Origin: a virus
DNA length: 64,000 nucleotides
Reading direction: 5' to 3' (one strand)
Virus record (IMG/VR): IMGVR_UViG_3300045988_165974
Location: 32,001 to 96,000 of that record
A program made the position numbers and the translations under genes. Numbering within the stretch: position 1 is the first letter of the stretch; each line of letters opens with the position of its first letter. The notes below the pieces were generated by a model that saw only the letters and a list, made by a program, of their open reading frames with translations, ran no database searches and had not been told where the DNA came from. Shown in pieces: positions 647 to 59,806 of this stretch.

Positions 647-829
647 CTATACAAACATAACATCCGTAAATAAAAATTTAGTTTTATCAGATAATTTAGA
701 AATTTTGTTTTTATCGTTTTCATAATAATAAAAAATATCATTATCTATTTTTTCAGATGTTATGTACTTAAAATTATAAAAATCTAATTCACTTTTATCT
801 CTTTTGTTTAATGCTACTATAAATTTCAT
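647..829 (-). CDS. hypothetical protein
   Basis: 60-aa ORF co-oriented with and packed against the portal gene. Confidence 0.3.
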   Translation of the reverse strand: MKFIVALNKRDKSELDFYNFKYITSEKIDNDIFYYYENDKNKISKLSDKTKFLFTDVMFV

Positions 830-3490: not shown

Positions 3491-4730
3491 CATATTGTTA
3501 TTAACCAATGGCTTTTTATCCATTGCTCTGGAGATTTCTCTCATTTGAAATTATCTTATCGGTTGGTCAATTCCAACCCAGATTGGCGTACATTTTTATT
3601 CTCTAATATTTATATGGCGAATATCGAATACTCTTGTTGATATTATATTCTGTGGAGGATGGCTATTCCCCAAACAGGTTCAATCAATACGCTCTACGAT
3701 ACTAATAACTCTTTAATTTTATTAGTTATCTCGGTATTTTCTTTTCTAATATTGAATTTATTTCTTTAACTTGTGAGTAATTAATCCTTATTAAATTAAT
3801 GTCATTCTTCTTACAAAAATTATTTTTTATGACATCATGCTTTTGTCTAATTTTAAATTTTTCTTTTCCTCCATAAAAATCGGTCGGTCTATAATGTTGT
3901 TCTCCATCAAATTCGATTGCAATATTAAAGTCATTTAAATAAAAATCAAAAGGGAGTGGACGAATATCTTTACAATACTTAAATTTATATTCTTTTTCAT
4001 ATTGTATATTATTCTTATCCAACCGTTCTGAAATTTTTATAACTCCAACACTTTCTTTTGATTGACAATTTGGACACTTTATTGTTTTCCCATTAAAATT
4101 TGAAAAAGCTCTAGTAAAAACACATCCACAATCTTCGTGTTTTAATGTTACTTTTCTTTGTGTATTAATTTCAATAATTTTAAATCCTTGATTATTTTTA
4201 TTTAAAACATTTTGCATATCTTCTATTGTTAATGTTTTATTTTTGCTTTCACATCTAGGACATATTACTTTTCTGTTTAAAAATCCTTTTAAATTTCTCT
4301 TAAAAACAAAATTACATTTCTTATGTTTTAAAGTTAAATAAGATTTATGAATACCATTGTATTCTAAATTAATTAATTCATAATCTTCTCCTATTTTTGA
4401 ATAAATATCTTCTAAAACTTTTTCAATAGGCTTGAACATTTTTGAGTTTGCATTTTCCTTAGAACAATCATTACATTGTATTTTATCTTGATTTTTAATG
4501 TTATAAAAATTTCTCTCAAAAATCTTTCCACATTTACATCTTAAAATTAATTTTTCAGAACCATTTTTATATTCTTTTGATAGCAACTCACAATCGGAAT
4601 TTTCTTCAATATAAGATTTTACTTGTTCATATGTAAATTTACTCATATTAACTCCTTTAAAGATTTTTACCGATATTACTCGATTACGGCTATAAGCACC
4701 CATATTTTACTTATAGCTAGGCAAAAGTTT
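3491..4730 (-). mobile_element. group I-like intron 3 of terL, carrying a homing endonuclease ORF
   Basis: The upstream exon ends in T and the intron ends ...TTAATAACAATATG (terminal G). A GC-richer structured core lies at 3491-3725, and its block at 3526-3563 is nearly identical to 6462-6499 in intron 1. Confidence 0.7.
3726..4703 (-). CDS. intron-encoded homing endonuclease: three Zn-ribbon repeats plus a DUF559/Vsr-like PD-(D/E)xK domain
   Basis: Repeated CxxC...CPxC units. C-terminal FDFYL..IAIEFDGEQH...K motif typical of Vsr/DUF559-fold nucleases. The ORF lies inside intron 3. Confidence 0.6.
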   Translation of the reverse strand: MGAYSRNRVISVKIFKGVNMSKFTYEQVKSYIEENSDCELLSKEYKNGSEKLILRCKCGKIFERNFYNIKNQDKIQCNDCSKENANSKMFKPIEKVLEDIYSKIGEDYELINLEYNGIHKSYLTLKHKKCNFVFKRNLKGFLNRKVICPRCESKNKTLTIEDMQNVLNKNNQGFKIIEINTQRKVTLKHEDCGCVFTRAFSNFNGKTIKCPNCQSKESVGVIKISERLDKNNIQYEKEYKFKYCKDIRPLPFDFYLNDFNIAIEFDGEQHYRPTDFYGGKEKFKIRQKHDVIKNNFCKKNDINLIRINYSQVKEINSILEKKIPR

Positions 4731-4923
4731 ACCATCCAGAACTTAAATATATCTCTTTGTTCTCTTCGATATATTTCTTCTTTAACATTGGATTATTTGC
4801 ATATTGAGGAAGACTTAAAAAACCTGGTTGTCTTGGATTTGTTAAGAAAGGTAATAAAACATCATCTAATATTTTTTGGTCTACCATTCTATATTCATCT
4901 ACAATCAAAATGTTGGCACGTTC
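4731..4923 (-). CDS. terL: terminase large subunit, exon 3 (Walker B)
   Basis: Encodes [13 protein letters not shown]... (Walker B ILIVDE). The junction DARG|ERAN with exon 2 is in frame. Confidence 0.8.
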
Positions 4924-6166
4924 CAATTTGTTATCCCATAAGCTCTTTATCTTATGGTTCTCATAAATTTCTTTATAAGTTCAGAGTACATTATCACTCT
5001 CATTTCATCTTAGCTCTCAATGAGTGTCGGAGGCTCTTGGAAGGATTATTGCTTTCATTTTGTCGCTCACCCTCTACTCGTTACGGACAATATTAGATAT
5101 TATTGCCCTCGGTATTACCACTACCCATTTTAGGGGTTAGGCTTTCTTACCAGTCTATCCCTCCTATTTCTAGGTTATATTTTTATGTACTTTCGACTAT
5201 GACCGATACACCCCGATTACGGCAATATGCACTTGAGAGTTTACATATTGCTAGGCTATTTGTAATATTTTGTTTGCTTTTATGTATTTTCTATCAAGAT
5301 AAATGGTTGCATTATCATACAATAAATGTACCAATTTCTTACATTCATTCTGTCGAGAAAAAGACAATTTATAACATGTATTGCTTAAATAAATTATTGA
5401 ATGTAATTCAAAATCTTTCTCCATTTTTTCTTTAATAAATTCAAAAATAGCTAAATTATTCCCTGCTATTGAGATATTAGGATATGATTTGTTTTTATTT
5501 TTCTTAAAACAATATGTACCATCTCCATCAATATACCCTCTTAGAAAATGTAAAAACAAAGTATTGTCTTCTATTCTTGGAAACACCTCTGAATAACTTT
5601 TATTTTGAACTATATTTTTATCTAATAAATCTAAATAAATTGATTTACTGTATACTCTAATAATGCAATTTACGCATTGTTTATTTCTAATTTTTTGGCC
5701 ATTTAAACGGTCAAGGGAATTATAATTACTAATTTTAGAATTAACTTTATAATAGTTATTAAAGTTTTTATTAAATTTATGTAAATGATTTATATCTTTA
5801 TAACTTAATTCTATTCCTAATTCATAGGTTCTATTTGAATGACTAATATATCCATCTGCATAAATAAATCCCAACCGATATGCTTTTTCTTCATTGTCAA
5901 TTTTATCAAAAAAACGTTGATTTCCTTTATCTTTATCAGAAATACTTTGTCTTAATTCTAGCTTGCCTTTTTGATAATCTATTGATTTTTCACTTCTTCC
6001 GATTAGTTTAGATAATTCTTTATTAGTATATTTTTTATAATTTTCTTTTAAAAATAAAATTTCTTCATCTTTCCGTTTTTTACTCACTTCGATTTCCTCC
6101 TAATTTTTTAAATTAGAAGGAATAAAGGCTTATACTCCTTTAAATTCCTAAGCAAACTTGAAAATA
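4924..6166 (-). mobile_element. group I-like intron 2 of terL, with a LAGLIDADG ORF
   Basis: The upstream exon ends ...AGAGGT and the intron ends ...GATAACAAATTG. A structured GC-richer core lies at 4924-5250. Confidence 0.7.
5251..6087 (-). CDS. LAGLIDADG homing endonuclease (double-motif)
   Basis: Two LAGLIDADG-type motifs (LGFIYADGYI and LRGYIDGDGT) in a 278-aa intron ORF. Confidence 0.85.
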   Translation of the reverse strand: MSKKRKDEEILFLKENYKKYTNKELSKLIGRSEKSIDYQKGKLELRQSISDKDKGNQRFFDKIDNEEKAYRLGFIYADGYISHSNRTYELGIELSYKDINHLHKFNKNFNNYYKVNSKISNYNSLDRLNGQKIRNKQCVNCIIRVYSKSIYLDLLDKNIVQNKSYSEVFPRIEDNTLFLHFLRGYIDGDGTYCFKKNKNKSYPNISIAGNNLAIFEFIKEKMEKDFELHSIIYLSNTCYKLSFSRQNECKKLVHLLYDNATIYLDRKYIKANKILQIA

Positions 6167-6427
6167 ACCTCTGGCATCTTGATTAGCTACAATAGCTTCT
6201 ATTCTACTTCCATTCCAAAATGTAATAGAAACCTCTTTACTATTAATCTGAATATCTTTAATTTCTTTTTGTAGAGCCTCGGATGTTTTATATAACTCTC
6301 CAATTATCTTATCTGTAATTATCTTTTGAGCTTGTTTCTTTCTCTTAGCTGCGACGATTATCTTTGTTCCTGGTTTTAAAGTGCAAATTAAAACTGAAAA
6401 AACTGAAATTAGCCACGTTTTGCCAAG
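6167..6427 (-). CDS. terL: terminase large subunit, exon 2 (Walker A)
   Basis: Minus-strand translation LGKTWLISVF...ANQDARG, 87 codons, with no ATG so it is not in the ORF track. It completes Walker A as CTRG|LGKTW. Confidence 0.8.
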
Positions 6428-7738
6428 CGATTGTTATTAACTGTAAGTTTTTTACCTTACACTCTGGAGGTTTCCCTCATTTGAAGTTATCTAATCGGTA
6501 TGTTAATTCATACCCAGTCTAGCATACACCTTCACCCTCGTTTAACGTTAGGAGATTAGATTTTACTCTATATCTAATAATTCTTTAAATTATTGTGTCG
6601 GAGGCTCGTGTTAGTATTATATTCTGCATAACAGTTTCAACTATAATGCGTTACGAATTCTAAATCCTTTTAAAGACTTAGTTCATCTCGGTATTAGCAT
6701 ATTTATTAATATAGAATCGAACAGTAGTATCACTAACATTCAATTCTTTTGATATTTCATCTATTGTATTATTCTTTTTAAAATACATGTCAATAATTTT
6801 ATTTTTTATTTTTGAAGTAATCTTTTGATTATAATTATAAGGATTAGAAACACCTCTAAGATAACCATTTACAGTACTACTAGGCAATTTTACAATATTT
6901 ATAATTTCACATTCTCTTAGTCCTTGTTCTTTTAATCTCATAACTTCATCATATTTTTTTAATCTTTCTTCATATGCTATTTGTTTTGTATTTCTATTTT
7001 CATATACAACCTTTTCTACAACACTTGAAGTATATCCTTCTGATGAAACTATTTCACAAATTCTCATACCACTATCATACAATTTTAAAATTTTTTCATT
7101 TCTTTCTTGTATAAGCTTCTTTTTCATTTTGTACATTAGTGGGTTTAATTCAGGATTTATATATTTAAAAATATTTCCTCTCGCAATTTTATCAATTTGA
7201 GATTTTGAGGTATTAAAAATTTTAGCAATTTCTTTTCTATCCATTAAGTTATATATTAAAAGTTTAATTCTTCTTATATCAGATTCAGATAGTTTGGAAT
7301 GTTTCATTCTTTTAGTATTACTTAACTTGATTCTACTTTCTATTGACATAGTTCCACCACCTTCTCCTCCTTCGGTAAGATTATACCCAAAATTTGGATT
7401 AGCAGTATTGAATTTATCAATATAAAACATTTCTTTATCATTTAATTCTTCTTTAGTTGTCTCTTCTAGTAATTCAAAAATAAAACTTTCTTTTCCATAT
7501 TTATCAAAAGCATTTTGTAAATGACAATTATAATGTTTACCTCTTCTTAACAGACCTTTATGTGCTAATATTCTGTCTTTAACATGAATTGATTGACCTA
7601 TGTATTTTTTATTATCTTTTATATTTGTTATACAATAAATTCCTACCATATTCCCTCCGATTACATTAATAAATTTAGCCTCCACCGATTCCCCCCGATT
7701 TATTACCCTTATATTTCTATAAGGGAGGGCATTGGTCT
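6428..7738 (-). mobile_element. group I-like intron 1 of terL, with a GIY-YIG ORF
   Basis: Exon 1 ends ...AGGGGT and the intron ends ...TTAATAACAATCG. It shares its 3' tail and core block with intron 3. Confidence 0.7.
6678..7685 (-). CDS. GIY-YIG homing endonuclease with C-terminal HTH repeats
   Basis: N-terminal GIYCITN...KYIGQS (GIY-YIG) and a conserved R/E/N core. The C-terminal half has repeated helix-turn-helix-like units. It is intron-encoded. Confidence 0.85.
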   Translation of the reverse strand: MEAKFINVIGGNMVGIYCITNIKDNKKYIGQSIHVKDRILAHKGLLRRGKHYNCHLQNAFDKYGKESFIFELLEETTKEELNDKEMFYIDKFNTANPNFGYNLTEGGEGGGTMSIESRIKLSNTKRMKHSKLSESDIRRIKLLIYNLMDRKEIAKIFNTSKSQIDKIARGNIFKYINPELNPLMYKMKKKLIQERNEKILKLYDSGMRICEIVSSEGYTSSVVEKVVYENRNTKQIAYEERLKKYDEVMRLKEQGLRECEIINIVKLPSSTVNGYLRGVSNPYNYNQKITSKIKNKIIDMYFKKNNTIDEISKELNVSDTTVRFYINKYANTEMN

Positions 7739-8994: not shown

Positions 8995-9606
8995 TTAGTC
9001 TATTTCAGGATTCTCAAAATTATATACATCATGTGTATAAAATCCTTTTTTCTTAGCTTCTTTATATCCAAAGAATTTTAGACATGTTTCTGATTCTCTT
9101 AATTCTTTTCTTGTAAGTTTAGTTTTCTCTAACACTATACTATCTAACTCTCTTGATAGTTGTTTATCTGCTTTTATTATTGATTCCATTTCTTCTAAGT
9201 ATCCAGTCAATCCAAGTCCTTGATATCCTGTTCCATGTATTGCAATTTGAGAAAATCTAGTACCTGTTCTTATATCACATGATAAAAATAAATAAACTGC
9301 CATACTTGCACATTGTCCTATTATATGTCCAATTACAGGAGCTTCTAATTCTTCCATTATACTAAGTATTGCACATCCTGCATTTACACTTCCTCCTGGG
9401 GAATTAAAGTAAATTTCAACAGGTTCTAAAGACTCTTTATACTTATCTGTTTTTTCCATATTTCTAGCAACTATTTCTTCATCTTCATCTATAATATCTC
9501 TAAGCGATTTGATGATTTCAATTGCCATTTTATTATCTATTACTCCATATATTTCTAATCTTCTGTTAACTTTGTCTTTTATTTTATCTTTATTGCAATC
9601 ACTCAT
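8995..9606 (-). CDS. ClpP-family serine protease (prohead protease type)
   Basis: FNSPGGSVNAG, QCASMA (Ser) and IAIHG (His) match ClpP/S14 motifs. 203 aa, AGGAGG-type RBS. Confidence 0.85.
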   Translation of the reverse strand: MSDCNKDKIKDKVNRRLEIYGVIDNKMAIEIIKSLRDIIDEDEEIVARNMEKTDKYKESLEPVEIYFNSPGGSVNAGCAILSIMEELEAPVIGHIIGQCASMAVYLFLSCDIRTGTRFSQIAIHGTGYQGLGLTGYLEEMESIIKADKQLSRELDSIVLEKTKLTRKELRESETCLKFFGYKEAKKKGFYTHDVYNFENPEID

Positions 9607-9622
9607 ATAAATGCCTCCAATC

Positions 9623-9886
9623 TTAGTATTCTGTATCTACTGTTATTGATACATTTATTTTTTCTTTATCAATGTAATTTTTTAATATTTCTTTTATTTC
9701 ATGAACATCCATATCATTTTTTGTATCTATTGTTAATTTTAAATCTTCTTCTTTTTCTAATTTGTCTAAGACTTCATCTAATCCATAGACATTTTCTCCT
9801 ACTTTTGTTTTTTCTACAACAATTAGTTCTCCATTTTCTTCTCTAATTGTTGCATCTTTAATTGTTAATTTTGATACTTTTTTCAT
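9623..9886 (-). CDS. hypothetical acidic protein
   Basis: 87-aa ORF with an RBS, packed upstream of the protease gene. Confidence 0.45.
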   Translation of the reverse strand: MKKVSKLTIKDATIREENGELIVVEKTKVGENVYGLDEVLDKLEKEEDLKLTIDTKNDMDVHEIKEILKNYIDKEKINVSITVDTEY

Positions 9887-9912
9887 AACATCATTTCTCC
9901 CTATTTTTTATT

Positions 9913-9986
9913 TGGTAGCAGAAAAAGGATTCGAACCTTTAGTTTTGGATAATGAGTCCAATGTGTTACCATTACACTATTCTGCG
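9913..9986 (-). tRNA. tRNA with CAT anticodon (Met or Ile2)
   Basis: Cloverleaf read by hand: D arm GTGT-AATGGTA-ACAC, anticodon arm TTGGA-CTCATTA-TCCAA, T arm AAAGG-TTCGAAT-CCTTT. CCA is encoded. There is a C1:U72 mismatch. Confidence 0.8.
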
Positions 9987-9999
9987 ATAATATCTTTAT

Positions 10000-10031
10000 A
10001 AAAAAAGAGAAGGAGTTACCAGTTCCTTCTC
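10000..10031 (-). terminator. hairpin terminator between tRNA-Asp and tRNA-Met
   Basis: GAGAAGGA-N9-TCCTTCTC, with a T run on the minus strand. It adjoins the only opposite-orientation copy of the ACAGCAAT motif (10039-10046). Confidence 0.55.
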
Positions 10032-10102
10032 TTGTATAACAGCAATTTTTTAGATAATACTATTTACTTATTTAGCAACTTCAACTCAACTAAATAAGCG
10101 AA

Positions 10103-10177
10103 TGGCGACCTACAAGGGAATCGAACCCTTATCTTTGGATAGACAGTCCAACATAATAACCTTTATACGAGTAAGCC
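10103..10177 (-). tRNA. tRNA-Asp (GTC)
   Basis: Acceptor GGCTTAC/GTAGGTC, anticodon arm TTGGA-CTGTCTA-TCCAA, T arm AAGGG-TTCGATT-CCCTT, G73 and an encoded CCA. Confidence 0.8.
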
Positions 10178-10193
10178 ATAACTGGGATTGAAC

Positions 10194-10330
10194 TGGAAAC
10201 AGTTGGATTTGAACCAACACCCTCTTCTTGACCTATAAGATTTAATTTCTTCTTTTAAATATATTGCTGTATGTGTCCCATAATCCCACTAGACACATAA
10301 TTATTTGTGCTACCATTACACCATGTTTCC
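10194..10330 (-). ncRNA. tRNA-like gene with about 64 extra nt between D arm and T arm
   Basis: Acceptor GGAAACA/TGTTTCC, D arm GTGT-AATGGTA-GCAC and T arm GTTGG-TTCAAAT-CCAAC are intact. The middle holds the hairpin ATGTGTC..GGACACAT plus ACAGCAAT. No standard anticodon arm is present. Confidence 0.6.
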
Positions 10331-10476
10331 ATATTCGAGAGAGGAAATTATTCCTCTCTGTTTGTATATCTTGGAGGTTTTAAAATGATGAATAATAATT
10401 ACAATACACTTATTTATATTTTCAAAATGTTTTGTGGTTGAAAAATTAAATTAATATTGCTGTATGTGTATTTATA

Positions 10477-11991
10477 TTATACAGTTATGCAAGAATATCT
10501 TTCTTGATTTACTGCTTCCATCATTAATTCATACCCTGTTTTACCTGTTAATATTATTTCAAATGTAGATGGTGAAAATCCACTTACATATGAAATTCTT
10601 CCACTTCCTAGCATTGGAATATTATTTTGTCTTGCATCGACATTCCAATATATTAAATGTGGTATTTCATATCCATGTGATTGCCATTTTTTAGCTATTG
10701 ATTCCATTAATGTTTCATGTGAGCTATATTTTTGTTCACTTCTACTACTTCTCCAGCTCCAACAATTGAATTCATCAACTCCATTGTCAAATTCCATATC
10801 TGAAATTATAGCAATATTTTGTGGCAAATCTTCTTGAGATAAATTATTTTTTAATGCAGTATTTAATACTAAATCAAATACAGATTCAATATTTGTATTT
10901 TCACATAAATTAGTATCGTATATTCTTCTAACTTTATCTACAAAGTCAATTCCTTCAACTTCTACTAATCTAGCCTTTCTACTAAAACTTATGTAATGGT
11001 CTTTAAATGGACCTTTATTTCTTTCTGCACAATAAATTCCAAGTGAAATTGCTACATTTATTGGAGTCCCCCACATAGAACCTGATGTATCTACAACAGG
11101 TAATAAACTACAAGATTTCCCATTAAAGTAATCTTTTAAATTATCCCAATATTTATTTACAACATTTCTTTCAGTAGTTGAAGTTGAGAAACTATGTCTT
11201 AGTCCAATAGCTTTTTCTACGACTTCATAAGGATATAATGTAGCTGCATTTACAGTAGTCTTATCACTATTCATAAAAGCACTATATCTTTCTTCACAAT
11301 GTCTTTCAAAAGCTTTTCTATATTTAAGTCCTGCTTTACTTGGAAGTTTATCAAATTCTATTTCATGCCAATTATTAGAACTCATTTGTGTTTCAACTAA
11401 TCTTATATGATTTCTTAATTTCACTAATGTTTTTCTATATTTTTTAGCATTCATATTCAACTTTTTAGCAAAATATTTAGCTTTAAGTTTAGTATTAACA
11501 CTACTTGCTCCAAGTGAAGGCATCCACTTAGCTAATAAAGATATTGGTTTATTATTGTTCATATCTTTAAGGTCTGTTTCTAATTGATTTTTAACAATAG
11601 ATAAAACTTCTTTTTCGAACTTAGAACCTTTATATCCTAATTCTAATAAATCGTCCCATCTCCCAAACTCTGCAAAATAAATTAAATTCTTTTTTAATGC
11701 TTTAGAATTATTTTTTTCTAACCATTTTGTTATAACTCTAAATAATCTTCTTTCACCTTGTCCTCCTCGGACATCTCTAAAATAAAATAATAATTTCATT
11801 GATATTAAAGGATTTTCTTTATATGCTTTTTTAAATTGTAAAATTACATCTTCTTCACTACGATTTCTCATAGCTCCCCCAAAAGCGAAAAAATCTAAAC
11901 AATTACTAAAAGTAGTAACATGAGTAGTAGCTCCGTTTTCAGTTAAAGTATAATTTTCTTCTTCTTTTAAATTTCTTAAAAGTTTATTCAT
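10477..11991 (-). CDS. vWA-domain protein with an N-terminal DUF2828/TROVE-like region
   Basis: MIDAS motif VVDTSGSM in the C-terminal half. The N-terminus (TENGA..T..N.LDFF..GGAMR...LFYFRDVRGGQGERRLF) matches my memory of DUF2828 proteins, which are Ro60-like (TROVE + vWA). Confidence 0.55.
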   Translation of the reverse strand: MNKLLRNLKEEENYTLTENGATTHVTTFSNCLDFFAFGGAMRNRSEEDVILQFKKAYKENPLISMKLLFYFRDVRGGQGERRLFRVITKWLEKNNSKALKKNLIYFAEFGRWDDLLELGYKGSKFEKEVLSIVKNQLETDLKDMNNNKPISLLAKWMPSLGASSVNTKLKAKYFAKKLNMNAKKYRKTLVKLRNHIRLVETQMSSNNWHEIEFDKLPSKAGLKYRKAFERHCEERYSAFMNSDKTTVNAATLYPYEVVEKAIGLRHSFSTSTTERNVVNKYWDNLKDYFNGKSCSLLPVVDTSGSMWGTPINVAISLGIYCAERNKGPFKDHYISFSRKARLVEVEGIDFVDKVRRIYDTNLCENTNIESVFDLVLNTALKNNLSQEDLPQNIAIISDMEFDNGVDEFNCWSWRSSRSEQKYSSHETLMESIAKKWQSHGYEIPHLIYWNVDARQNNIPMLGSGRISYVSGFSPSTFEIILTGKTGYELMMEAVNQERYSCITV

Positions 11992-12058
11992 ATCATCTCT
12001 CCAATCAAGATACCTTTGTGTTTCCCTTTTGCTGATTGTATCTTTATATTATTTTTTA

Positions 12059-12132
12059 TGGCAGACTAAAATGGATTTGAACCATTATCTTCAAGATTCG
12101 GAGTCTCGATGTTTTACTTAAACCATTAGCCT
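12059..12132 (-). tRNA. tRNA-Arg (CCG)
   Basis: Acceptor AGGCTAA/TTAGTCT, anticodon arm CGAGA-CTCCGAA-TCTTG, T arm AATGG-TTCAAAT-CCATT, CCA encoded. Confidence 0.75.
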
Positions 12133-12453
12133 ATAAAAATTTCTAGCTAGAAAATAATTAAAATTAATTAGATTAAAATTCATTATACTTGGTTAACTCC
12201 CTGATTTCTTTTAGTTGTGTATCAGGGGAAAACAACAAGTAATTACTATATTAACTTAATAGGATATTATACTTCCGACATTCTTATTAATCGCTATCGG
12301 ATGTGCGATTTATTTTGTTTGCAAACATCTTTAGTGTAGTTCCCGTAAAAAACTTACTTGCTATAAAAAAAACTTTCAGAAATCACTACACATGACAGAT
12401 TATGTAGGTGGGGTCTGTCTCCATACACCATACAAACGAGATGATTTTTTCTT

Positions 12454-12519
12454 TGGACTTAATCGGAATTGAACCGATAACATCATGCCTGATAATTTTC
12501 CCCATTAAACTATAAGTCC
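12454..12519 (-). ncRNA. tRNA-like gene lacking an anticodon (4-nt loop)
   Basis: Acceptor GGACTTA/TAAGTCC, a D arm, and T arm ATCGG-TTCAATT-CCGAT. The anticodon arm is only TATCA-GGCA-TGATG. Total length is 66 nt. Confidence 0.55.
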
Positions 12520-12525
12520 ATATAA

Positions 12526-12597
12526 TGACCTATGAGGGAATTGAACCCTCGCCCTCACCGTGAAAGGGTGATGTCTTAGCCACTTGACTAATAGGTC
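12526..12597 (-). tRNA. tRNA-Glu (TTC)
   Basis: Acceptor GACCTAT/ATAGGTC, anticodon arm TCACC-CTTTCAC-GGTGA, T arm GAGGG-TTCAATT-CCCTC. Confidence 0.8.
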
Positions 12598-12602
12598 ATG
12601 CT

Positions 12603-12679
12603 TGGTCTAAGTAGAGGGACTCGAACCCCCAGTCTCCACATCCCAAATGTGGCGGTCTACCAAATTAACCTATACCTAG
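12603..12679 (-). tRNA. tRNA-Pro (TGG)
   Basis: Acceptor CTAGGTA/TACTTAG, anticodon arm CCACA-TTTGGGA-TGTGG, T arm GGGGG-TTCGAGT-CCCTC, A73 and an encoded CCA. Confidence 0.8.
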
Positions 12680-12851
12680 ATATTAGAGTCTAGCATCAAA
12701 ATACTAGGCTTAATCATAACAATAATTTTTAATCAAGACTCTATTTAATACTCGTTTTTAACAGAAACGTAATTAATAAATTGCTGTTAGAGTCTTTTTA
12801 TAAATATTTAGCCAGAAAACCCATTCCCTTTAGGTGATGGGATGAATGGCG

Positions 12852-14114
12852 TTAAATTGCTACTGTCTGTACCATTTGTGATGTTCTTGCAGTGACTCGC
12901 TTACAGTTACTTAACTTTGGCGTTTTAAAACCTCTTGGCATTGCTGAAAAAACAATCTTATTCCCATCAATGTCCATAAGAATTGCATATCCTGTAAACA
13001 TTCTTCCCTTAATAAAGTATTCCTTGCCAAAGTATTTTACTTTGTCATATTTTCTAAAACCGTATATTTTACCAGTTGTAATAGGCTGTTCTGAACGAAC
13101 ACCTTTTGTTTTTCGAAAATCACCATCAGAAACACATTTCTTTTTGTAAAGATTACTCCTTACATAAAAAGCATTCCCTTGTGTTGATATAGTACAAGCA
13201 TCATAATAATGTTTTTTGTCTATCCCTAAATGTAAACGATTAGTCTTTGTCACATATCCAAAAGTTTCAATAGCATTTGGATAGAATCTGAAAAGCTGCT
13301 TACGGATAGAATTCATTTGCGTAGCATATTTAAGATTACCCTTAACTTTACCGCTTAATTTAGGGTTAATCTTCTCACTATGTAAATCTTTATGACAGGT
13401 GTGACATAAAGTAATTAAATTACTTTCTTCGTCAGAACCACCTTGACTACGAAATACAATATGATGAACTTCTAATTTGCTATCCTTATGCTTGCCTTTA
13501 CAATATTGACAAGTATAGTTATCTCTATTAAGTACCATTGCTTTTGTATTTTCAAATCCATAGTTAACACCTTTCTGATACCCCCAATGTCTAACCTTGG
13601 AATTTGCAAGTATTGGATTTTTCATTAAATGCATATCAAACTTCCCTGTTTCAAATACTAAAGTTGTAATTGGTAAAATAGATTTAATATATTCTATTTC
13701 CTTTACATGACTATGAAGTTTGCTCTGCATTGTAGGACTAAATCTATCCTTTCTAATAGAATTTGCACGATTTAACCATCTTGCTTTTCTATAACGAGTT
13801 TTACGATTTCGTCTGTTTCTACGATACTTTGCTCTTTGTGTCATTTTGTTAGTAATGTCGTTTCTTACAACAATTTCCGACATATAAACAATATTTCCTT
13901 TTTCATCTGATACTGCTGTTCCTATTGTTCCACTACCTGTATCTACACCTAAAATTAAATCTTGAGTGTAGTTTGTACTGTCATACAATAGTTTAATTGT
14001 AAACGGACAACGACTAACAACTTTAGCTTTTCTATCTTTTAACAGATGTCTGATTTTCCCATACCTATTCGTAGGCATAAGTGGTTGTCCATCTTTGTTT
14101 AATACATATACCAT
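12852..14114 (-). CDS. iscB: IscB RNA-guided nuclease (RuvC + HNH; OMEGA system)
   Basis: N-terminal PLMP motif (DGQPLMPT). RuvC-I GVDTGSGTIG. Arg-rich bridge helix RRNRRNRKTRYRKARW. RuvC-II LVFETGKFD. HNH CQYC...HHIVFRSQGGSDEESNLITLCHTCH. RuvC-III HYYDAC. 420 aa. Confidence 0.9.
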   Translation of the reverse strand: MVYVLNKDGQPLMPTNRYGKIRHLLKDRKAKVVSRCPFTIKLLYDSTNYTQDLILGVDTGSGTIGTAVSDEKGNIVYMSEIVVRNDITNKMTQRAKYRRNRRNRKTRYRKARWLNRANSIRKDRFSPTMQSKLHSHVKEIEYIKSILPITTLVFETGKFDMHLMKNPILANSKVRHWGYQKGVNYGFENTKAMVLNRDNYTCQYCKGKHKDSKLEVHHIVFRSQGGSDEESNLITLCHTCHKDLHSEKINPKLSGKVKGNLKYATQMNSIRKQLFRFYPNAIETFGYVTKTNRLHLGIDKKHYYDACTISTQGNAFYVRSNLYKKKCVSDGDFRKTKGVRSEQPITTGKIYGFRKYDKVKYFGKEYFIKGRMFTGYAILMDIDGNKIVFSAMPRGFKTPKLSNCKRVTARTSQMVQTVAI

Positions 14115-14425
14115 AAACAGATATTCCTTTCATTAAATTAAATTAATAACTCAGCTACACAAGTAACTGTTATGCGTACTATACTGTACTGTTACCATAC
14201 AGTTGTTTCGACTTCAACTCGACAATGATATAAAGGCTTTTTACATATACATTACAAGGCTGTTCTTACTCTGACCTAACTTAAATGTATACGATAGAGC
14301 AATGGTCTGTTGCGTCAACCAAAGGTATCATGACTTAAATATCGTAGCCATCATTTCTGTGGCTTAGTCTGGTGAACCATTTAACAGAAGCCCATAAGCT
14401 TTAGCTTGTGGGTAGTTCACTTAAT
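14115..14425 (-). ncRNA. putative IscB omega-RNA scaffold
   Basis: About 300 nt directly 5' of iscB, locally GC-richer and ORF-free. It has several helices, e.g. GTGAAC..GTTCAC and CCCACAAGCT-AA-AGCTTATGGG. The position matches published IscB omega-RNAs. Confidence 0.65.
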
Positions 14426-14695
14426 TATTCCTGGAAGGAGATTTTTCAATTACAATGCACAAATATTATTAATAAAATCCTTTTTTTATCATAAACATAA
14501 TTGCTGTATGTGCATTTAATTATATTAACTTTAAGAAGGTACTTATCAAGACACTAAACATTATAAATATGAAACTTCCTAGAATTGTTCAATTTATTTT
14601 GAGGATTTGAACCTCTAAAGCACTTGTTTATTGACTTATTTACCTATTTGAATTAATTGCTGTAAGTGTCTTTTGAATGTATATTTTTAGAACAG

Positions 14696-14811
14696 GACGG
14701 GAAGTAGGAGTCGAATCTACAACCTACGGCTTAAATGGCAAATTAAAATGCTGTTAGTGTATCCCTTCTATACACATATTACGTTGCTCTACCCGTTGAG
14801 CTATTCCCGTC
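14696..14811 (-). ncRNA. tRNA-His-like gene with about 45 extra nt and degenerate anticodon and T arms
   Basis: G-1 plus ACGGGAA/TTCCCGT plus C73 (His signature). D arm GCTC-AACGGGTA-GAGC. Then hairpin GTGTAT-AGAAGGG-ATACAC followed by TAACAGCATT. Only 3 bp of anticodon stem remain. Confidence 0.5.
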
Positions 14812-14818
14812 ATAATGT

Positions 14819-14936
14819 TGCCGAAGAATAGATTTGAACTATTATCCTATAGCTTCCCTGTTTGAAATTGCTGCTTATGTATTTATCAATACATCTATTT
14901 ATTGGCTATTGCTCCAACCATTTGAGCTACTTCGGC
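14819..14936 (-). ncRNA. tRNA-like gene with a 51-nt anticodon loop
   Basis: Perfect acceptor GCCGAAG/CTTCGGC, D arm GCTC/GAGC, anticodon stem ATAGC/GCTAT and T arm AATAG-TTCAAAT-CTATT. The loop holds hairpin ATGTATT-GATA-AATACAT plus AAGCAGCAAT. Confidence 0.65.
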
Positions 14937-15002
14937 ATATTCTAGGGTAGAATTCCTCTACCCCATTTTTTAAACAAACAAAGAAAGAAACAGTAATAAC
15001 TT

Positions 15003-15043
15003 TGAGGTCTGTAGGATTTGAACCTACTGAAACCTTCGACCTC
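15003..15043 (-). ncRNA. acceptor/T-arm minihelix (tRNA top half only)
   Basis: GAGGTCG-AAGGTTTCA-GTAGG-TTCAAAT-CCTAC-AGACCTC-A. There is no D arm and no anticodon arm. Confidence 0.4.
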
Positions 15044-15205
15044 ACATTACTAGGGAAATTAATCCCTAGCATTCAAAAAGGGGAACAAAGAAATCAAACA
15101 ATGCACTATTTACATTCTTGCCAGTCATGTGGCATTTTTCAAAATCCAATTTGTTTTATTTTCTTCTCTTGTATATGTAATAATTGCTGTGAGTGCATTT
15201 ACCCC

Positions 15206-15490
15206 TTATATTTCTTTAGTTAATCTTTCTTTTGTACTCTTAGTGAATTTTATATAAGGTACTATTTTATCAGGTGTTTCATATTCATAACAACCTATTT
15301 GATTATCTATTTTACCTGCTCTACCTTTTCTTTCTTTAGTACCTATTTTTATACCACAAATTATTACTTCATCTCTATTTTCGATTACTCTATTTAATAA
15401 TCTTTCTAATCCGTCTACTACCTCTGCTGCTCTAACTTGTGTTATATCTAGTTCACTAGCTATTTCTTTTAACATATCTTTTTTTGTCAT
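15206..15490 (-). CDS. HU/IHF-family DNA-binding protein
   Basis: MTKKDMLKEIASELDITQ...GIKIGTKERKGRAGK...PYIKFTKSTKE follows the HU/IHF pattern. The ATG at 15490 has the best spacing from the AGGAG RBS; the track ORF starts at 15508. Confidence 0.75.
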   Translation of the reverse strand: MTKKDMLKEIASELDITQVRAAEVVDGLERLLNRVIENRDEVIICGIKIGTKERKGRAGKIDNQIGCYEYETPDKIVPYIKFTKSTKERLTKEI

Positions 15491-15592
15491 ATTCATTTCT
15501 CCTATCATTAAAAATTTTTAGAACTTCATTTCGGTAAGGAAAATACCGTCTTTTATCGTTCTTACATTTTTAATAAGGAGTTTTACTACCTT

Positions 15593-16786
15593 TTAACAAT
15601 GTTGCTTTGCACTATGTTTTTTATGTCTTTCCTCTGTCTCGCATTTTTTACACTTCGGTCTATATCTATCTTTGTTTTTTGAAAAGTGATGTATTAGTTT
15701 AGTTTCTCCACATTTAGAGCATTTTTTCCATGTTCCTTTTACAACATAAGTGTAATACCGTTCTCGGTACTCCTCCCAATATTTCTTCTCTATTACCTTA
15801 CAAATACTATTTATTGTTATGTTAACCAATTGTTGTTTCATATGTAAGATTTCTATTATCTGATAAGGTTTTACATTTCTTCTGTATAGATTTAAAACAT
15901 TCTGTTGATTCTTTGTAAAAGTACACCTACTAAGTACATCTTCAAAATCCATCATGACACAAACCATATCTGTATCATCTATTCCTTCATACTTCATTCT
16001 AAGTAAGCTTCTTATCTCTTTTTCTGTCGGAATATCAATTTCTTTAAACATCTGTGAACCAGTTGGGACTAAAGGACTTTTAAATGTTATTGGTCTTTCT
16101 AGCAATAATTTGCCATTATTTAAATCGTCTTTAACTCCATGAACTAGATAACTAAGTTCCATAGTTCCGTTTCCACTTTTCATTTTATCAATTAAGTGGA
16201 CATATAAATCGTAATAATTTTTTAAGACCTCGTGTTTTTCAATATCTTTCTTTTCAAACACAACATCTTTTACTTTATTATAATTATGTTCTACTGCTTG
16301 AAATATTGGAAAAGCTTCCCCATTATATGTTTCTTTATTATTTATATAAGGAACTCCTCCATTTCCTATCGCTAATTGATTCATAACTTTTTCTTCTTTG
16401 CAAGCTCTTCTAAACAGCTCTTTACTATTATAGATTTTATACTTTAATTCTTTCTTTTGTTGAACCTCTCCGTCTATTATGTGTTCCTTAGAATTAAGAA
16501 TATAAGTACCTAACCTCTCTAAATAGATTGCTACATTAGAAGTTGAATATAAGCTATCCTCTTTTGATAAGTGAATTTTTATTTTCTGTCTTTCTTCTGT
16601 ATCAAAAAGTTCCTCAAAGAATTCGTCATAAAACTCTTTTCCATTTATCTCATAAGTGCCTAACATATCTTTCACATATTTAACTCTATTGTCACTTCTT
16701 TGGATTGTATAGTCTAATTCATAATAATCTCTGATTGACTTCCCACACAGTTTTCCATAAAAATTGTTATTATGAAATTCATTCAA
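15593..16786 (-). CDS. hypothetical protein with a sigma-region-4-like HTH and a C-terminal Zn ribbon
   Basis: 397-aa ORF behind two TTGACA-17-TATAAT promoters. It carries an HTH-like LSRCTFTKNQQNVLNLYRRNVKPYQIIEIL and CSKCG...CKKC. Confidence 0.5.
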   Translation of the reverse strand: MNEFHNNNFYGKLCGKSIRDYYELDYTIQRSDNRVKYVKDMLGTYEINGKEFYDEFFEELFDTEERQKIKIHLSKEDSLYSTSNVAIYLERLGTYILNSKEHIIDGEVQQKKELKYKIYNSKELFRRACKEEKVMNQLAIGNGGVPYINNKETYNGEAFPIFQAVEHNYNKVKDVVFEKKDIEKHEVLKNYYDLYVHLIDKMKSGNGTMELSYLVHGVKDDLNNGKLLLERPITFKSPLVPTGSQMFKEIDIPTEKEIRSLLRMKYEGIDDTDMVCVMMDFEDVLSRCTFTKNQQNVLNLYRRNVKPYQIIEILHMKQQLVNITINSICKVIEKKYWEEYRERYYTYVVKGTWKKCSKCGETKLIHHFSKNKDRYRPKCKKCETEERHKKHSAKQHC

Positions 16787-46903: not shown

Positions 46904-47090
46904 ACAAGCATTTGTAGGTATGTACCGATGGCTTTAGTCGGGAATTTACGACTGTGGACTGTACAAGAACTTGTGAGTAGTGTATTACTTTGTAATCACA
47001 AAAGCATACAGGATGAAACAGTAAGAAAAGTTTGTGAAAACTTTCAATATCTCGATATGGGTATATTTGTCCATATTTTGAGTGGCAGGA
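46780..47090 (+). ncRNA. putative TnpB omega/reRNA scaffold and right end
   Basis: ORF-free, GC-richer stretch overlapping and following the tnpB 3' end. Hairpin CCGATGGCTTTAGTCGG (46925-46941) and AATTTACGAC..TGGA, also seen after the second tnpB. Ends are uncertain. Confidence 0.45.
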
Positions 47091-59631: not shown

Positions 59632-59806
59632 TATCATTAATAAGATAATGCTAATATGTAGGATGCGTTGTATCCAAATTTACGCCCTTGGAGAGTTATA
59701 TCAAACGAAAGTAGGTTGTTATTTATAATTTCCAAAATCGAATTCGTAGAACAGGGAATTAAACAAGATTTATAGATATTTATAGATTTTTGGCAACGGA
59801 GTAAAT

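What the first reader, a model, noticed from the sequence alone, without database searches (positions are those of the whole stretch)
10039..15190. An ~18-nt motif (AAAKRCACWW-ACAGCAAT), usually following a hairpin, confined to the tRNA island (9 copies)
**Copies.** Plus-strand ATTGCTGT-type cores, so the motif reads on the minus strand:
- 10263-10270 (inside a tRNA-like gene);
- 10456-10463 (7 nt after the vWA gene stop);
- 12780-12787 (next to the IscB element end);
- 14500-14507;
- 14656-14663;
- 14747-14754 and 14867-14874 (inside tRNA-like genes);
- 15183-15190 (about 15 nt after the HU-like gene stop);
- one inverted copy, ACAGCAAT at 10039-10046, next to a terminator hairpin.

**Minus-strand sequences**
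- GGGACACATACAGCAAT
- AATACACATACAGCAAT
- AAAGACTCTAACAGCAAT
- AAATGCACATACAGCAAT
- AAAGACACTTACAGCAAT
- GGATACACTAACAGCATT
- AAATACATAAGCAGCAAT
- AAATGCACTCACAGCAAT

**Other observations**
- In at least five copies the upstream part is the 3' arm of a variable hairpin.
- I found no copy outside 10.0-15.2 kb.

**Inference.** Candidates are:
- a REP/PATE-like mobile hairpin linked to IS200/IS605-type biology;
- an RNA processing or 3'-end signal of the island transcript, since it follows two stop codons at a similar distance;
- a binding site for an island-encoded protein.

The sequence alone does not decide between these.
Basis: seen in the sequence. Interest (0 to 1): 0.65.

Follow-up and report, generated by a model that had tools for sequence, protein, structure and literature searches.

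The report
Ro-like protein handle on tRNA-like RNAs
The repeated ACAGCAAT motif is the conserved, unpaired part of a small RNA module (a covarying helix plus ACAGCAAW) that marks a family of Y-RNA-like and tRNA-shaped non-coding RNAs found next to a Ro60-like gene in many phages, so it is most likely that protein's RNA binding site rather than a transposon relic.

Summary
**Observation.** It holds: eight minus-strand copies lie in 10.26-15.19 kb and none elsewhere. The plus-strand copy at 10039 looks like chance. A ninth, diverged copy lies in the 5' UTR of the Ro-like gene.

**What the motif is.** It is part of an RNA module: 5'-AAGACNNNN-ACAGCAAW-[interior]-NNNNGUCUU-G-3'. The helix covaries, and ACAGCAA and the 3' G do not vary.
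- Five window copies are "linear" units whose partner strand lies 36-100 nt downstream.
- Three copies sit as a capped helix in the anticodon region of tRNA-shaped genes.

**Evidence from relatives.**
- In relatives the same helix encloses a permuted tRNA-like domain (T arm, capped acceptor stem, D arm). That is the YrlA (bacterial Y RNA) layout.
- Rfam YrlA hits one such unit below threshold and aligns ACAGCAA to the Ro-contact motif GNCGAA.
- The window's tRNA-shaped forms align full length to a profile of these units only after circular permutation in silico.

**Link to the protein.** Units co-occur with the DUF2828/DUF7788 gene (window 10477-11991). Its predicted fold is best matched by Ro60. 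The gene is present in 44 of 93 unit loci against 3 of 147 controls. Staphylococcus phage 6ec and Campylobacter phage PC5 show the same pairing.

**What is rejected.** The IscB link is not supported: the "empty site" in a close relative is a deletion between two motif copies.

**Verdict.** This is a new variant of the Y RNA kind. Protein binding is inferred, not shown.

The parts
15099..15199 (-). Linear unit U1, starting about 7 nt after the stop of the HU-like ORF. 5' strand AATGCACT at 15199-15192; core ACAGCAAT at 15190-15183; 75-nt interior; 3' strand AGTGCATT at 15107-15100; then G.
   Evidence: The MFE fold recovers the closing helix.
14819..14936 (-). tRNA-shaped RNA B (closed form). 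It has an acceptor stem, D arm and T arm. The anticodon stem AUAGC/GCUAU encloses helix a' 14894-14888 / a 14884-14877 plus core GCAGCAAT at 14874-14867.
   Evidence: Rfam tRNA 53.3 bits with a 50-nt insert in the anticodon loop. The in-silico circular permutant aligns full length to the YrlA-like profile at 30.4 bits. Coordinates.
14692..14815 (-). tRNA-shaped RNA C (closed form, degenerate T stem). Helix a' 14775-14770 / a 14762-14757; core ACAGCATT at 14754-14747.
   Evidence: The permutant scores 38.1 bits, E 6.5e-12. Homologous closed forms occur in L112 and L114.
14547..14672 (-). Linear unit U4. 5' strand AAGACACT at 14672-14665; core at 14663-14656; 100-nt interior containing a T-arm-like GAGGTTCAAATCCTC; 3' strand AGTGTCTT at 14555-14548; then G.
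14453..14516 (-). Linear unit U5. 5' strand AATGCACA at 14516-14509; core at 14507-14500; 38-nt interior; 3' strand TGTGCATT at 14461-14454; then G. The guide and HEARO region of the IscB omega-RNA follows its 3' tail.
12734..12796 (-). Linear unit U6. 5' strand AAGACTCTA at 12796-12788; core at 12787-12780; 36-nt interior; 3' strand TAGAGTCTT at 12743-12735; then G. It lies between the IscB ORF and tRNA-Pro.
   Evidence: In L001 its 5' strand is lost by a deletion between the motif copies of U5 and U6.
12006..12044 (-). Probable diverged compact module U9 in the 5' UTR of the Ro-like gene. AAGATAC at 12044-12038; core TCAGCAAA at 12035-12028; 14-nt interior; GTATCTT at 12013-12007; G at 12006. 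The Shine-Dalgarno sequence GGAGAG at 12001-11996 and the start codon at 11991 follow directly.
   Evidence: A covariance model built without any window sequence gives 21.5 bits, E 0.025. A competing helix is preferred in the MFE fold, so this part is less certain.
10477..11991 (-). Gene for the Ro60-like protein (504 aa; Pfam DUF2828 + DUF7788; PHROG 850 'RNA-binding protein'). It is the proposed partner of the module.
   Evidence: AlphaFold model with pLDDT 74. The top 7 Foldseek PDB hits are Ro60 over the full length, E 1e-4 to 4e-3. No sequence-level match to Ro60.
10402..10472 (-). Linear unit U7, starting 4 nt after the stop of the Ro-like ORF. 5' strand AATACAC at 10472-10466; core at 10463-10456; 46-nt interior; 3' strand GTGTATT at 10409-10403; then G.
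10194..10330 (-). tRNA-shaped RNA A (closed form). Helix a' ATGTGTC at 10298-10292 (followed by TAG) / a GACACAT at 10277-10271; core at 10270-10263; then about 60 nt, a T arm and the acceptor 3' strand.
   Evidence: Rfam tRNA 44 bits with a long anticodon-loop insert. The MFE fold shows acceptor, D, module helix and T arm. The permutant scores 30.4 bits.

Best explanation
**What it is.** The motif is the invariant, single-stranded part of a portable RNA module. The module is a 7-9 bp helix with a conserved base (AAGAC/GUCUU) and a variable, covarying upper part. ACAGCAAW follows the 5' strand directly, and an invariant G follows the 3' strand.

**Proposed role.** The module is the recognition handle for the phage's Ro60-like protein (DUF2828/DUF7788, window 10477-11991). 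RNAs carrying it are this protein's Y RNAs.

**Forms.** In the window the handle occurs in three settings:
- as short stand-alone units behind two ORFs and between tRNAs, comparable to YrlB;
- capped and inserted in the anticodon region of three tRNA-shaped RNAs, which are circular permutations of the YrlA layout (helix, V hairpin, T arm, capped acceptor stem, D arm) seen in relatives;
- probably in the protein's own 5' UTR next to the ribosome binding site, which would allow autoregulation.

**Proposed mechanism.** The RNAs are made as part of the tRNA-island transcript. The tRNA processing enzymes acting on neighbouring tRNAs free them. The Ro-like ring binds the helix, the ACAGCAAW strand and the 3' tail. 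The tRNA-like domain then recruits a tRNA-recognising partner, for example a host exonuclease or a repair or modification enzyme, for RNA quality control or tRNA protection during infection.

**Shown versus inferred.**
- Shown: the structure, its conservation, the permutation relationship and the genomic linkage to the protein.
- Inferred: binding, processing, autoregulation and the downstream function.
For: **Helix and register**
- 31 of 53 gene-strand ACAGCAAW copies in protein-anchored loci have an exact complementary strand of at least 7 nt downstream, against 7.2% of control positions (p 3e-22). On the opposite strand the count is 0 of 6.
- The G after the 3' strand is in fixed register in 245 of 287 units, against a G frequency of 0.20.
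- RNAalifold, run unsupervised on 22 units, recovers the closing helix with compensatory changes in 6 of 8 pairs, plus T arm, capped acceptor stem and D arm. ACAGCAA is invariant and unpaired.
- Pair counts on 96 distinct helices: 89% paired against 34-49% when the partner is slid (selection bias noted).

**Y RNA relationship**
- Rfam YrlA (RF02553) matches L003 9204-9311 over the full model at 34.8 bits, E 2e-6. It places ACAGCAAAU on the consensus acggCgaAU, that is, on the GNCGAA Ro-contact motif (PMC4201824).
- Circular permutants of the three window tRNA-shaped RNAs align full length to the unit profile (30-38 bits). The native sequences align only as two swapped halves, and shuffles score 5 bits or less.

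**Protein**
- The top 7 structural matches are Ro60 over the full length.

**Linkage to the protein gene**
- The Ro-like gene is in 44 of 93 loci that hold a unit, against 3 of 147 loci that hold the bare motif without a partner strand (Fisher p 2e-18).
- In all 31 viral cases it is on the same strand, typically 100-1500 nt away.
- 11 of 16 protein-anchored loci hold units.
- Staphylococcus phage 6ec has 3 tandem units right after the gene. Campylobacter phage PC5 has 2 units right before it.
Against: - No binding, expression or end-mapping data exist. Everything rests on comparative sequence analysis.
- The protein matches Ro60 only by predicted fold (TM 0.33-0.38, model pLDDT 74). It has no sequence-level or Pfam TROVE match.
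- The YrlA hit is far below the gathering score (34.8 against 69 bits). No window unit is hit by YrlA.
- Thermodynamic support is weak in this AT-rich sequence: z-scores run from -0.25 to -2.6, and two units prefer other folds.
- About half of the unit-bearing loci show no Ro-like gene within the few kb that were fetched.
- In some phages the helix wraps complete tRNAs called by ARAGORN. That fits a pre-tRNA leader/trailer processing role at least as well as a Y RNA role.
- Eight or nine copies in one genome is more than the two to four Y RNAs usual per species.
Confidence: 0.68

Rival explanations
1. Processing stalk. The leader/trailer helix plus ACAGCAAW is a cleavage signal, recognised by a host or phage endonuclease. 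It releases or regulates the RNAs of the polycistronic tRNA island, in the way RNase III stalks flank rRNAs. The Ro-like protein acts at most as a chaperone.
For: - Units abut tRNA ends: CCA, then 1-4 nt, then the helix; and G, then about 8 nt, then the next tRNA.
- In L029, L055, L093, L034 and L125 the helix encloses a complete tRNA called by ARAGORN.
- Units follow ORF stops in the window.
Against: - A double-strand-specific nuclease would not need an invariant unpaired 7-mer and an invariant G.
- The capped versions inside tRNA-shaped RNAs, and the units placed in front of the Ro-like ORF, have nothing to release.
- The strong, same-strand linkage is to a protein with no nuclease domain recognised by Pfam or PHROGs and with a Ro60-like predicted fold.
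- YrlA is known to be cut by RNase P without ceasing to be a Y RNA (PMC4201824).
Confidence: 0.17
2. Unconventional tRNA introns. The three tRNA-shaped genes are real tRNAs whose anticodon loops carry an intron made of the helix plus ACAGCAAT. An unknown phage pathway splices it out. The stand-alone copies are solo or degenerate intron relics.
For: - Two of the three genes pass the Rfam tRNA gathering score, with a 50-65 nt insert exactly in the anticodon loop.
- Similar genes occur in L021, L112 and L114.
Against: - After any simple excision, no consistent 7-nt anticodon loop with U33 and a purine at 37 can be restored. This was checked by inspecting the window forms and those of L021, L112 and L114.
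- Bacteria have no known machinery for small tRNA introns, and no group I intron signal was found.
- No RNA ligase or splicing endonuclease was found among the roughly 25 window ORFs scanned.
- The same module is far more often outside tRNA frames or around permuted frames.
Confidence: 0.06
3. REP/PATE-like mobile hairpin, or the target-adjacent motif of the IS200/IS605-type IscB element that sits in the island.
For: - The IscB/HEARO element (12852-14420) lies between two motif copies.
- The close relative L001 lacks it, with a junction exactly at ACAGCAAT.
Against: - The junction is a deletion. In the window both flanking units are complete, with complementary strands. The L001 hybrid pairs AATGCACA with TAGAGTCTT, which are not complementary.
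- The omega-RNA scaffold starts about 80 nt from the junction, and the guide region does not match the motif.
- No TnpA or RAYT was identified among the ORFs scanned.
- The helix strands covary instead of being copies.
- The module is conserved in phages that have no IscB, for example 6ec and PC5.
Confidence: 0.03
4. DNA-level signal: a promoter for the phage sigma-like factor (15593-16786), or a DNA binding site for the HU-like protein.
For: - A sigma-factor-like ORF and an HU-like ORF flank the island.
- All copies face the same way.
Against: - In relatives the motif lies downstream of TATAAT boxes, inside transcripts.
- The compensatory changes with a distant partner strand are an RNA-level constraint.
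- The motif travels with the Ro-like gene in phages where no sigma or HU gene is annotated in the region shown.
Confidence: 0.03

Closest known systems
YrlA / bacterial and phage Y RNAs bound by Ro60 (Rsr): Rfam RF02553; Chen et al. 2014, PMC4201824; Thermus phage phiLo Yrl1/2, PMC12135203
   Same: - Encoded beside, and on the same strand as, a ring-type Ro-like HEAT + vWA protein.
- The 5' and 3' ends pair.
- A short conserved motif sits near the 5' end, at the position of GNCGAA.
- The interior is a permuted tRNA mimic: V hairpin, T arm, capped acceptor stem, D arm.
- Shorter partners without the tRNA domain also exist, like YrlB.
- There are several copies per genome.
   Different: - The protein is DUF2828/DUF7788, not a Pfam TROVE member.
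- The conserved motif is ACAGCAAW, not GNCGAAN0-1G. It lies unpaired just inside a separate covarying helix rather than within the stem.
- An invariant G follows the 3' strand.
- The units score below the Rfam threshold.
- They are embedded in tRNA arrays, with up to 8-9 per genome.
- The handle also occurs capped inside unpermuted tRNA frames and wrapped around whole tRNAs.
Circularly permuted and split tRNA genes (Cyanidioschyzon merolae permuted tRNAs; Nanoarchaeum split tRNAs)
   Same: The same RNA fold is encoded with its ends at different positions. A helix formed by leader and trailer joins the two tRNA halves.
   Different: - Those are true tRNAs, matured through bulge-helix-bulge cleavage and ligation.
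- Here no anticodon loop can be restored and no splicing machinery is evident.
- Here the joining helix carries a conserved protein-type motif.
REP/BIME and PATE elements of IS200/IS605-type transposases
   Same: Short repeated hairpin-plus-motif sequences in intergenic regions, often after stop codons. An IS200/IS605-family relative (IscB) lies nearby.
   Different: - The strands covary instead of being repeated.
- The copies are confined to the tRNA island.
- No Y1 transposase was identified.
- The module is conserved across phyla-spanning phages together with one specific protein gene.

Membership tests
Y RNA / YrlA (RF02553) | Encoded within a few kb of, and on the same strand as, a Ro60 orthologue | tested here: met
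   - In the window, modules lie from 4 nt to 3.2 kb from ORF 10477-11991, all on the minus strand.
- In 31 of 31 viral loci they are on the same strand.
- The protein is Ro60-like by predicted fold only.
Y RNA / YrlA (RF02553) | Partner protein carries a TROVE domain recognisable by sequence | tested here: not met
   - Pfam gives DUF2828 + DUF7788 only, even at E up to 10.
- Single-sequence and profile searches of PDB sequences find no Ro60.
Y RNA / YrlA (RF02553) | Conserved 5' motif GNCGAAN0-1G (CGAA) that Ro60 contacts | tested here: not met
   The motif is ACAGCAAW. The YrlA model aligns it to the same model positions (acggCgaAU) in L003.
Y RNA / YrlA (RF02553) | Stem formed by the 5' and 3' ends | tested here: met
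   Closing helix with compensatory changes. Five window units have 7-9 bp perfect helices.
Y RNA / YrlA (RF02553) | Internal tRNA-like domain in the order V, T arm, capped acceptor stem, D arm | tested here: inconclusive
   - Met in relatives.
- In the window only the circularly permuted (tRNA-framed) version exists, and U4 has a T-arm remnant.
Y RNA / YrlA (RF02553) | Reaches the Rfam gathering score | tested here: not met
   34.8 against 69 bits for L003 9204-9311. No YrlA hit at E up to 5 in window 9500-16000, and none at gathering in six loci.
Y RNA / YrlA (RF02553) | Physically bound by the Ro-type protein | not testable with these tools
   Needs EMSA, co-immunoprecipitation or CLIP.
REP / PATE (IS200/IS605-associated) | Near-identical hairpin copies, mobilised by a Y1 transposase (TnpA/RAYT), that are polymorphic between strains | tested here: not met
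   - The helix sequences differ and covary.
- No TnpA was found among the ORFs scanned.
- The only polymorphism, against L001, is a deletion between two motif copies.
IscB target-adjacent motif / guide target | The motif abuts the element end, next to the guide-matching flank | tested here: not met
   - HEARO starts at 14420 and the guide region is about 14421-14441.
- The nearest motif (14500-14507) belongs to a complete unit that ends at 14453.
Intron-containing tRNA | Excision restores a 7-nt anticodon loop with U33 and a purine at 37 | tested here: not met
   No consistent loop can be restored in the window forms or in those of L021, L112 and L114 (inspection). No group I intron hit.

The most novel reading that the evidence does not exclude
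**A second Ro-type RNP system.** DUF2828/DUF7788 proteins form a very large family: more than 8000 relatives were found here, in phages of Firmicutes, Campylobacter, Acinetobacter and Bacteroidetes-type hosts and in giant viruses. They would constitute a second Ro-type RNP system with its own Y RNA family, defined by a portable helix + ACAGCAAW handle.

**Grafting onto tRNA scaffolds.** Phages attach this handle to tRNA scaffolds in every possible topology:
- inserted in the anticodon loop;
- circularly permuted;
- wrapped around a whole tRNA, including suppressor tRNAs.

**Implications.** The tRNA-framed forms in this window would be the unpermuted intermediates showing how tRNA-mimicking Y RNAs arose from tRNA genes. 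The handle would let the phage mark, protect or control its own tRNA-island RNAs during infection.
Probability: 0.4. Interest if true: 0.78.

Novelty: new variant of a known kind. Interest (0 to 1): 0.62.

Why it matters
- **Function for an uncharacterised family.** Y RNAs and Ro60 are known in animals, about 5% of bacteria and a few phages, but their function is still poorly understood. Here an abundant viral protein family of unknown function (DUF2828/DUF7788) gains a candidate RNA ligand with a precise, mutable recognition element.
- **Testable systems.** Two cultured phage-host pairs can be used at once: Staphylococcus phage 6ec with S. epidermidis, and Campylobacter phage PC5 with C. jejuni.
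- **Origin of tRNA mimicry.** The window holds unpermuted, tRNA-framed versions alongside the permuted YrlA-like versions of relatives. This gives a concrete route by which tRNA mimicry in Y RNAs could have evolved.
- **Annotation.** tRNA-like genes with anticodon-loop inserts in phage tRNA islands, and 60-130 nt gaps between phage tRNAs, need not be pseudogenes or spacers.
- **Caution on "empty sites".** A guide-RNA nuclease element can look as if it targets a motif when the "empty site" is really a deletion between repeats.

Tried and rejected
1. **IscB/TAM idea.** The L001 "empty site" first looked like an insertion after ACAGCAAT. Alignment and the complementary strands of the two flanking units showed it to be a deletion.
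2. **Rfam.** There is no family hit on the window units at gathering or at E up to 5. In six related loci nothing beyond tRNA and drum reached gathering.
3. **GenBank phages.** A blastn search with the island found no close relative, only distant matches to the Ro-like gene.
4. **Sequence link to Ro60.** Neither a single sequence nor a 30-sequence profile against PDB, nor Pfam at E up to 10, shows one.
5. **Mini covariance model.** The model (helix + core, interiors removed) cannot span the 36-100 nt interiors. It did not recover the known window units as full hits. It did find the compact 5' UTR copy and otherwise mostly unrelated hairpins.
6. **Thermodynamic folding.** z-scores are unconvincing in this 28% GC sequence.
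7. **Promoter scan.** It is not above shuffles, and the promoter reading was rejected on comparative grounds.
8. **Literature.** Searches for DUF2828, YrlA and phage Ro60 found no description of this RNA family. A search for phage transcriptome evidence gave nothing usable.
9. **Variant-core search.** It found no units in the five protein-anchored loci that lack them. Those loci have short or one-sided flanks.

Full report
**1. Checking the observation**

The region was read directly.
- ACAGCAAT occurs exactly seven times in the 64-kb window, against 1.99 expected. None of 100 dinucleotide-preserving shuffles reaches seven.
- The longer pattern CACWWACAGCAAT with at most one mismatch gives seven minus-strand copies, all between 10263 and 15195.
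- GCAGCAAT at 14867 is an eighth minus-strand copy.

The setting of the island on the minus strand is as follows.
- ARAGORN and Rfam find tRNA genes at 9913-9986, 10103-10177, 12059-12132, 12454-12519, 12525-12598 and 12603-12679.
- Rfam finds an IscB omega-RNA (HEARO) at 14207-14420.
- Rfam also reports two tRNA matches that carry 50-65 nt inserts in the anticodon loop, at 10194-10330 and 14819-14936. Both inserts contain the motif.

ORF annotations:
- ORF 10477-11991 is DUF2828 + DUF7788 (PHROG 850, "RNA-binding protein").
- ORF 12852-14114 is IscB (RRXRR + HNH).
- ORF 15206-15508 is HU-like.

**2. What the relatives show**

A scan of viral contigs with the DUF2828 protein returned 17 loci. 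One is a 97%-identical phage (L001); the others share about 45-55% protein identity.

The motif is conserved in the distant relatives as AAGACNNNN-ACAGCAAW. It lies a few nucleotides after tRNA CCA ends, or about 20 nt after TATAAT boxes. So it is a transcribed and deeply conserved element.

Printing 130 nt downstream of each copy revealed the key feature. The 7-9 nt before ACAGCAAW are complementary to a stretch 30-150 nt downstream. That stretch is followed by G and an A/U-rich tail, just before the next tRNA. Different units use different strands, for example:
- AAGACGT / ACGTCTT
- TAGGCACA / TGTGCCTA
- TATGCGGT / ACCGCATA
- AATGCAC / GTGCATT

All five window copies that are not inside tRNA frames have perfect partners of 7-9 bp, 36-100 nt downstream.

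**3. Is the helix real?**

- With a strict test (an exact Watson-Crick 7-mer ending 0-3 nt before the core, with its partner 20-165 nt downstream), 31 of 53 gene-strand ACAGCAAW copies in the protein-anchored loci pass. Only 7.2% of control positions pass (p 3e-22), and none of six opposite-strand copies does.
- The G after the 3' strand is in the register predicted from the 5' side in 245 of 287 units. The G frequency is 0.20.
- RNAalifold on a MAFFT alignment of 22 units, run without guidance, predicts the closing helix with compensatory changes in six of eight pairs. It also predicts a T arm, a capped acceptor-like stem and a D arm. ACAGCAA is invariant and unpaired.
- On 96 distinct helices, 89% of cells pair, against 34-49% when the partner is slid by one to three columns. 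All nine pairs show double changes. These units were selected for having at least six complementary bases, so this count is supportive rather than independent.
- Single-sequence folding gives weak z-scores, from -0.25 to -2.6, in this 28% GC DNA. The case for the helix is therefore comparative, not thermodynamic.

**4. What kind of RNA is it?**

The order in relatives is: helix 5' strand, conserved motif, V hairpin, T arm, capped acceptor stem, D arm, helix 3' strand. This is the layout described for YrlA, the tRNA-mimicking Y RNA bound by bacterial Ro60 (PMC4201824).

Rfam's YrlA model matches L003 9204-9311 end to end at 34.8 bits (gathering score 69), with E 4e-5 in a 3.6-kb search and 2e-6 in a 181-nt search. 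The alignment puts ACAGCAAAU on the model's acggCgaAU. That is the GNCGAAN0-1G motif, which Chen et al. relate to the GGUCCGA that Ro60 contacts. So the finding's motif occupies the position of the Ro-contact motif of YrlA, but with a different sequence and lying just inside a separate helix.

**5. The three tRNA-framed copies in the window**

Here the order is: acceptor 5' strand, D arm, linker, a', loop, a, ACAGCAAT, linker, T arm, acceptor 3' strand. The a' strand is still followed by (T/A)G, as in the linear units.

I built a profile from the 22 permuted units and scored the window RNAs against it.
- The native sequences align only as two halves in swapped order.
- After cutting them in the helix loop and joining the acceptor ends in silico, they align full length at 30.4, 30.4 and 38.1 bits (E 1.5e-9 to 6.5e-12).
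- Ninety shuffles score at most 5 bits.

They are therefore circular permutations of the YrlA-like units. In other words, they are Y-like RNAs that keep the ordinary tRNA gene order.

The same tRNA-framed type occurs in unrelated contigs (L021, L112, L114). No consistent anticodon loop with U33 and a purine at 37 can be restored by excising the insert, which argues against ordinary introns.

A third topology also exists. In L029, L055, L093, L034 and L125 the helix encloses a complete tRNA called by ARAGORN, including an ochre-suppressor-type tRNA.

**6. The protein**

An AlphaFold model made with a 30-sequence alignment has mean pLDDT 74.
- Foldseek against the PDB returns Ro60 entries as the top seven hits, over the full length (1yvr, 9nf8, 1yvp, 9nfa, 2i91, 9nep; E 1e-4 to 4e-3). 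Isolated vWA domains follow.
- TM-scores are low (0.33-0.38), and no sequence-level link to Ro60 is detectable. The assignment is "Ro60-like architecture", not orthology.
- Against viral models, the fold recurs in phages and in giant viruses under DUF2828/DUF7788 names.

**7. Linkage between RNA and protein**

The pattern AAGACACWWACAGCAAW was scanned in viral contigs and in one genome per species. I split the loci by whether the complementary 3' strand is present. This separates real units from chance or coding occurrences. I then looked for the protein by tblastn within the few kb held.

| Collection | Unit loci with the Ro-like gene | Loci without a unit that have the gene |
|---|---|---|
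| Viral contigs | 31 of 72 | 2 of 48 |
| Genome contigs | 13 of 21 | 1 of 99 |
| Combined | 44 of 93 | 3 of 147 (Fisher p 2e-18) |

In all 31 viral cases the unit and the gene share a strand, usually 100-1500 nt apart.

Two cultured phages show the same arrangement.
- Staphylococcus phage 6ec has three tandem units in the 220-nt gap right after its "RNA binding protein" gene.
- Campylobacter phage PC5 has two units between tRNA-Tyr and its homologue.

A covariance model built without any window sequence found one more compact, diverged module in the window at 12006-12044. It ends 5 nt before the Shine-Dalgarno sequence of the Ro-like ORF (E 0.025). A competing helix exists there. Several other loci also have a simple unit about 100 nt upstream of the gene. 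This suggests autoregulation, which is an inference.

**8. The IscB question**

L001 lacks window 12788-14499, and its junction reads ...AAATGCACAT-ACAGCAAT-ttattaattacg. Taken alone, this looks like an insertion after the motif.

In the window, however, both flanking units are complete: AATGCACA/TGTGCATT and AAGACTCTA/TAGAGTCTT. The L001 hybrid joins the 5' strand of one unit to the interior and 3' strand of the other, and those strands cannot pair. The simplest reading is a deletion in L001 between two 9-nt identical motif copies. The omega-RNA scaffold begins about 80 nt from the junction, and the guide region does not resemble the motif. IscB is a neighbour, not a partner.

**9. Mechanism proposed**

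- Shown: a conserved, covarying RNA module; its modular combination with tRNA-like domains in three topologies; and tight genomic linkage to a Ro60-like gene.
- Inferred from what is established for Ro60 and Y RNAs (PMC4201824, PMC12135203):
  - the Ro-like ring binds the helix, the ACAGCAAW strand and perhaps the A/U-rich 3' tail left after RNase P cuts the downstream tRNA;
  - the tRNA-like domain tethers a tRNA-recognising effector;
  - the RNP acts in RNA quality control or tRNA protection during infection;
  - the short units behind ORFs and in the protein's own leader act as YrlB-like partners or as cis-acting binding sites.

The main rival is a processing stalk for the tRNA-island transcript. 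It is not excluded, and the two could coexist.

**10. Novelty**

Phage Ro60 homologues with Y-like RNAs carrying the CGAA motif are known (PMC4201824, PMC12135203). I found no description of a DUF2828-linked RNA family, of the ACAGCAAW handle, or of tRNA-framed Y RNAs in the searchable literature or in Rfam 15. I rate it a new variant of a known kind.

Confidence by step:

| Claim | Confidence |
|---|---|
| The RNA module is real | about 0.95 |
| It is functionally tied to the Ro-like gene | about 0.9 |
| It is that protein's direct binding site | about 0.68 |

Noticed in passing
window 14985-15075 (-): Just downstream of unit U1 lie a strong hairpin (CTAGGGATTAATTTCCCTAG) and a T-arm/acceptor minihelix (TGAGGTC...GTAGGTTCAAATCCTAC.GACCTCA). 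Folding gives z -3.46, with 0 of 200 shuffles as stable. Neither ARAGORN nor Rfam calls it. It may be a further tRNA-like fragment belonging to the U1 RNA.
   Followed up: partly
window 12135-12450 (-): A 316-nt non-coding gap between tRNA(CAT) and tRNA-Arg(CCG). It is 93% identical to L001, has no Rfam match and no thermodynamic signal (z -0.12). Its function is unknown.
   Followed up: partly
window 12134/12135, compared with L001 9782-9854: A tRNA-Gln(UUG) gene present in the 97%-identical relative is precisely absent from the window, as a 77-nt indel directly upstream of tRNA-Arg.
   Followed up: partly
window 12788-14499, compared with L001 9163-9171: The relative lacks the interior of unit U5, the whole IscB/HEARO element and the 5' strand of unit U6. 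This is a deletion between two identical 9-nt motif copies that mimics an IscB empty site.
   Followed up: yes
window 46951-47024 (+) and 59685-59758 (+): Two RAGATH-18 RNAs above the Rfam gathering score, at 74.9 and 67.6 bits.
   Followed up: no
window 15593-16786 (-): A 397-aa ORF matching the PHROG 5767 'sigma factor' family (E 4e-67), with an HNH/Lar-like C-terminus. It lies directly upstream of the HU-like gene.
   Followed up: no
window 2379-7685 (-): A terminase-like ORF (2379-3461) is followed by HNH (3726-4703), endonuclease (5251-6087) and GIY-YIG (6678-7685) ORFs. This stretch is rearranged relative to L001 and looks like a homing-endonuclease hotspot in the packaging module.
   Followed up: no
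L002-L005, L010-L013, L016 (tRNA with anticodon CTA); L034 2026-2098 (tRNA with anticodon TTA): Relatives carry amber-suppressor-type tRNAs, which suggests stop-codon recoding in this phage group. In L034 an ochre-suppressor-type tRNA sits inside a helix + ACAGCAAA unit. No suppressor tRNA was found in the window.
   Followed up: partly
L019 (IMGVR_UViG_GVMAG-M-3300017963-53_000001), core matches at 156-172, 408-424 and 698-714 (-): A contig labelled as a giant-virus MAG has three units, each right after a ...CCAACCA end. The DUF2828/DUF7788 fold also recurs in Pithovirus, Marseillevirus and Mimiviridae proteins. The system may reach beyond phages.
   Followed up: partly
L003 6212-6344, L002 6362-6494, L014 19296-19418: Further tRNA hits of 123-133 nt with long internal inserts. 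In L003 the insert contains AGTGTCTAG-like strands but no ACAGCAA core. They are possibly a different insert type.
   Followed up: no
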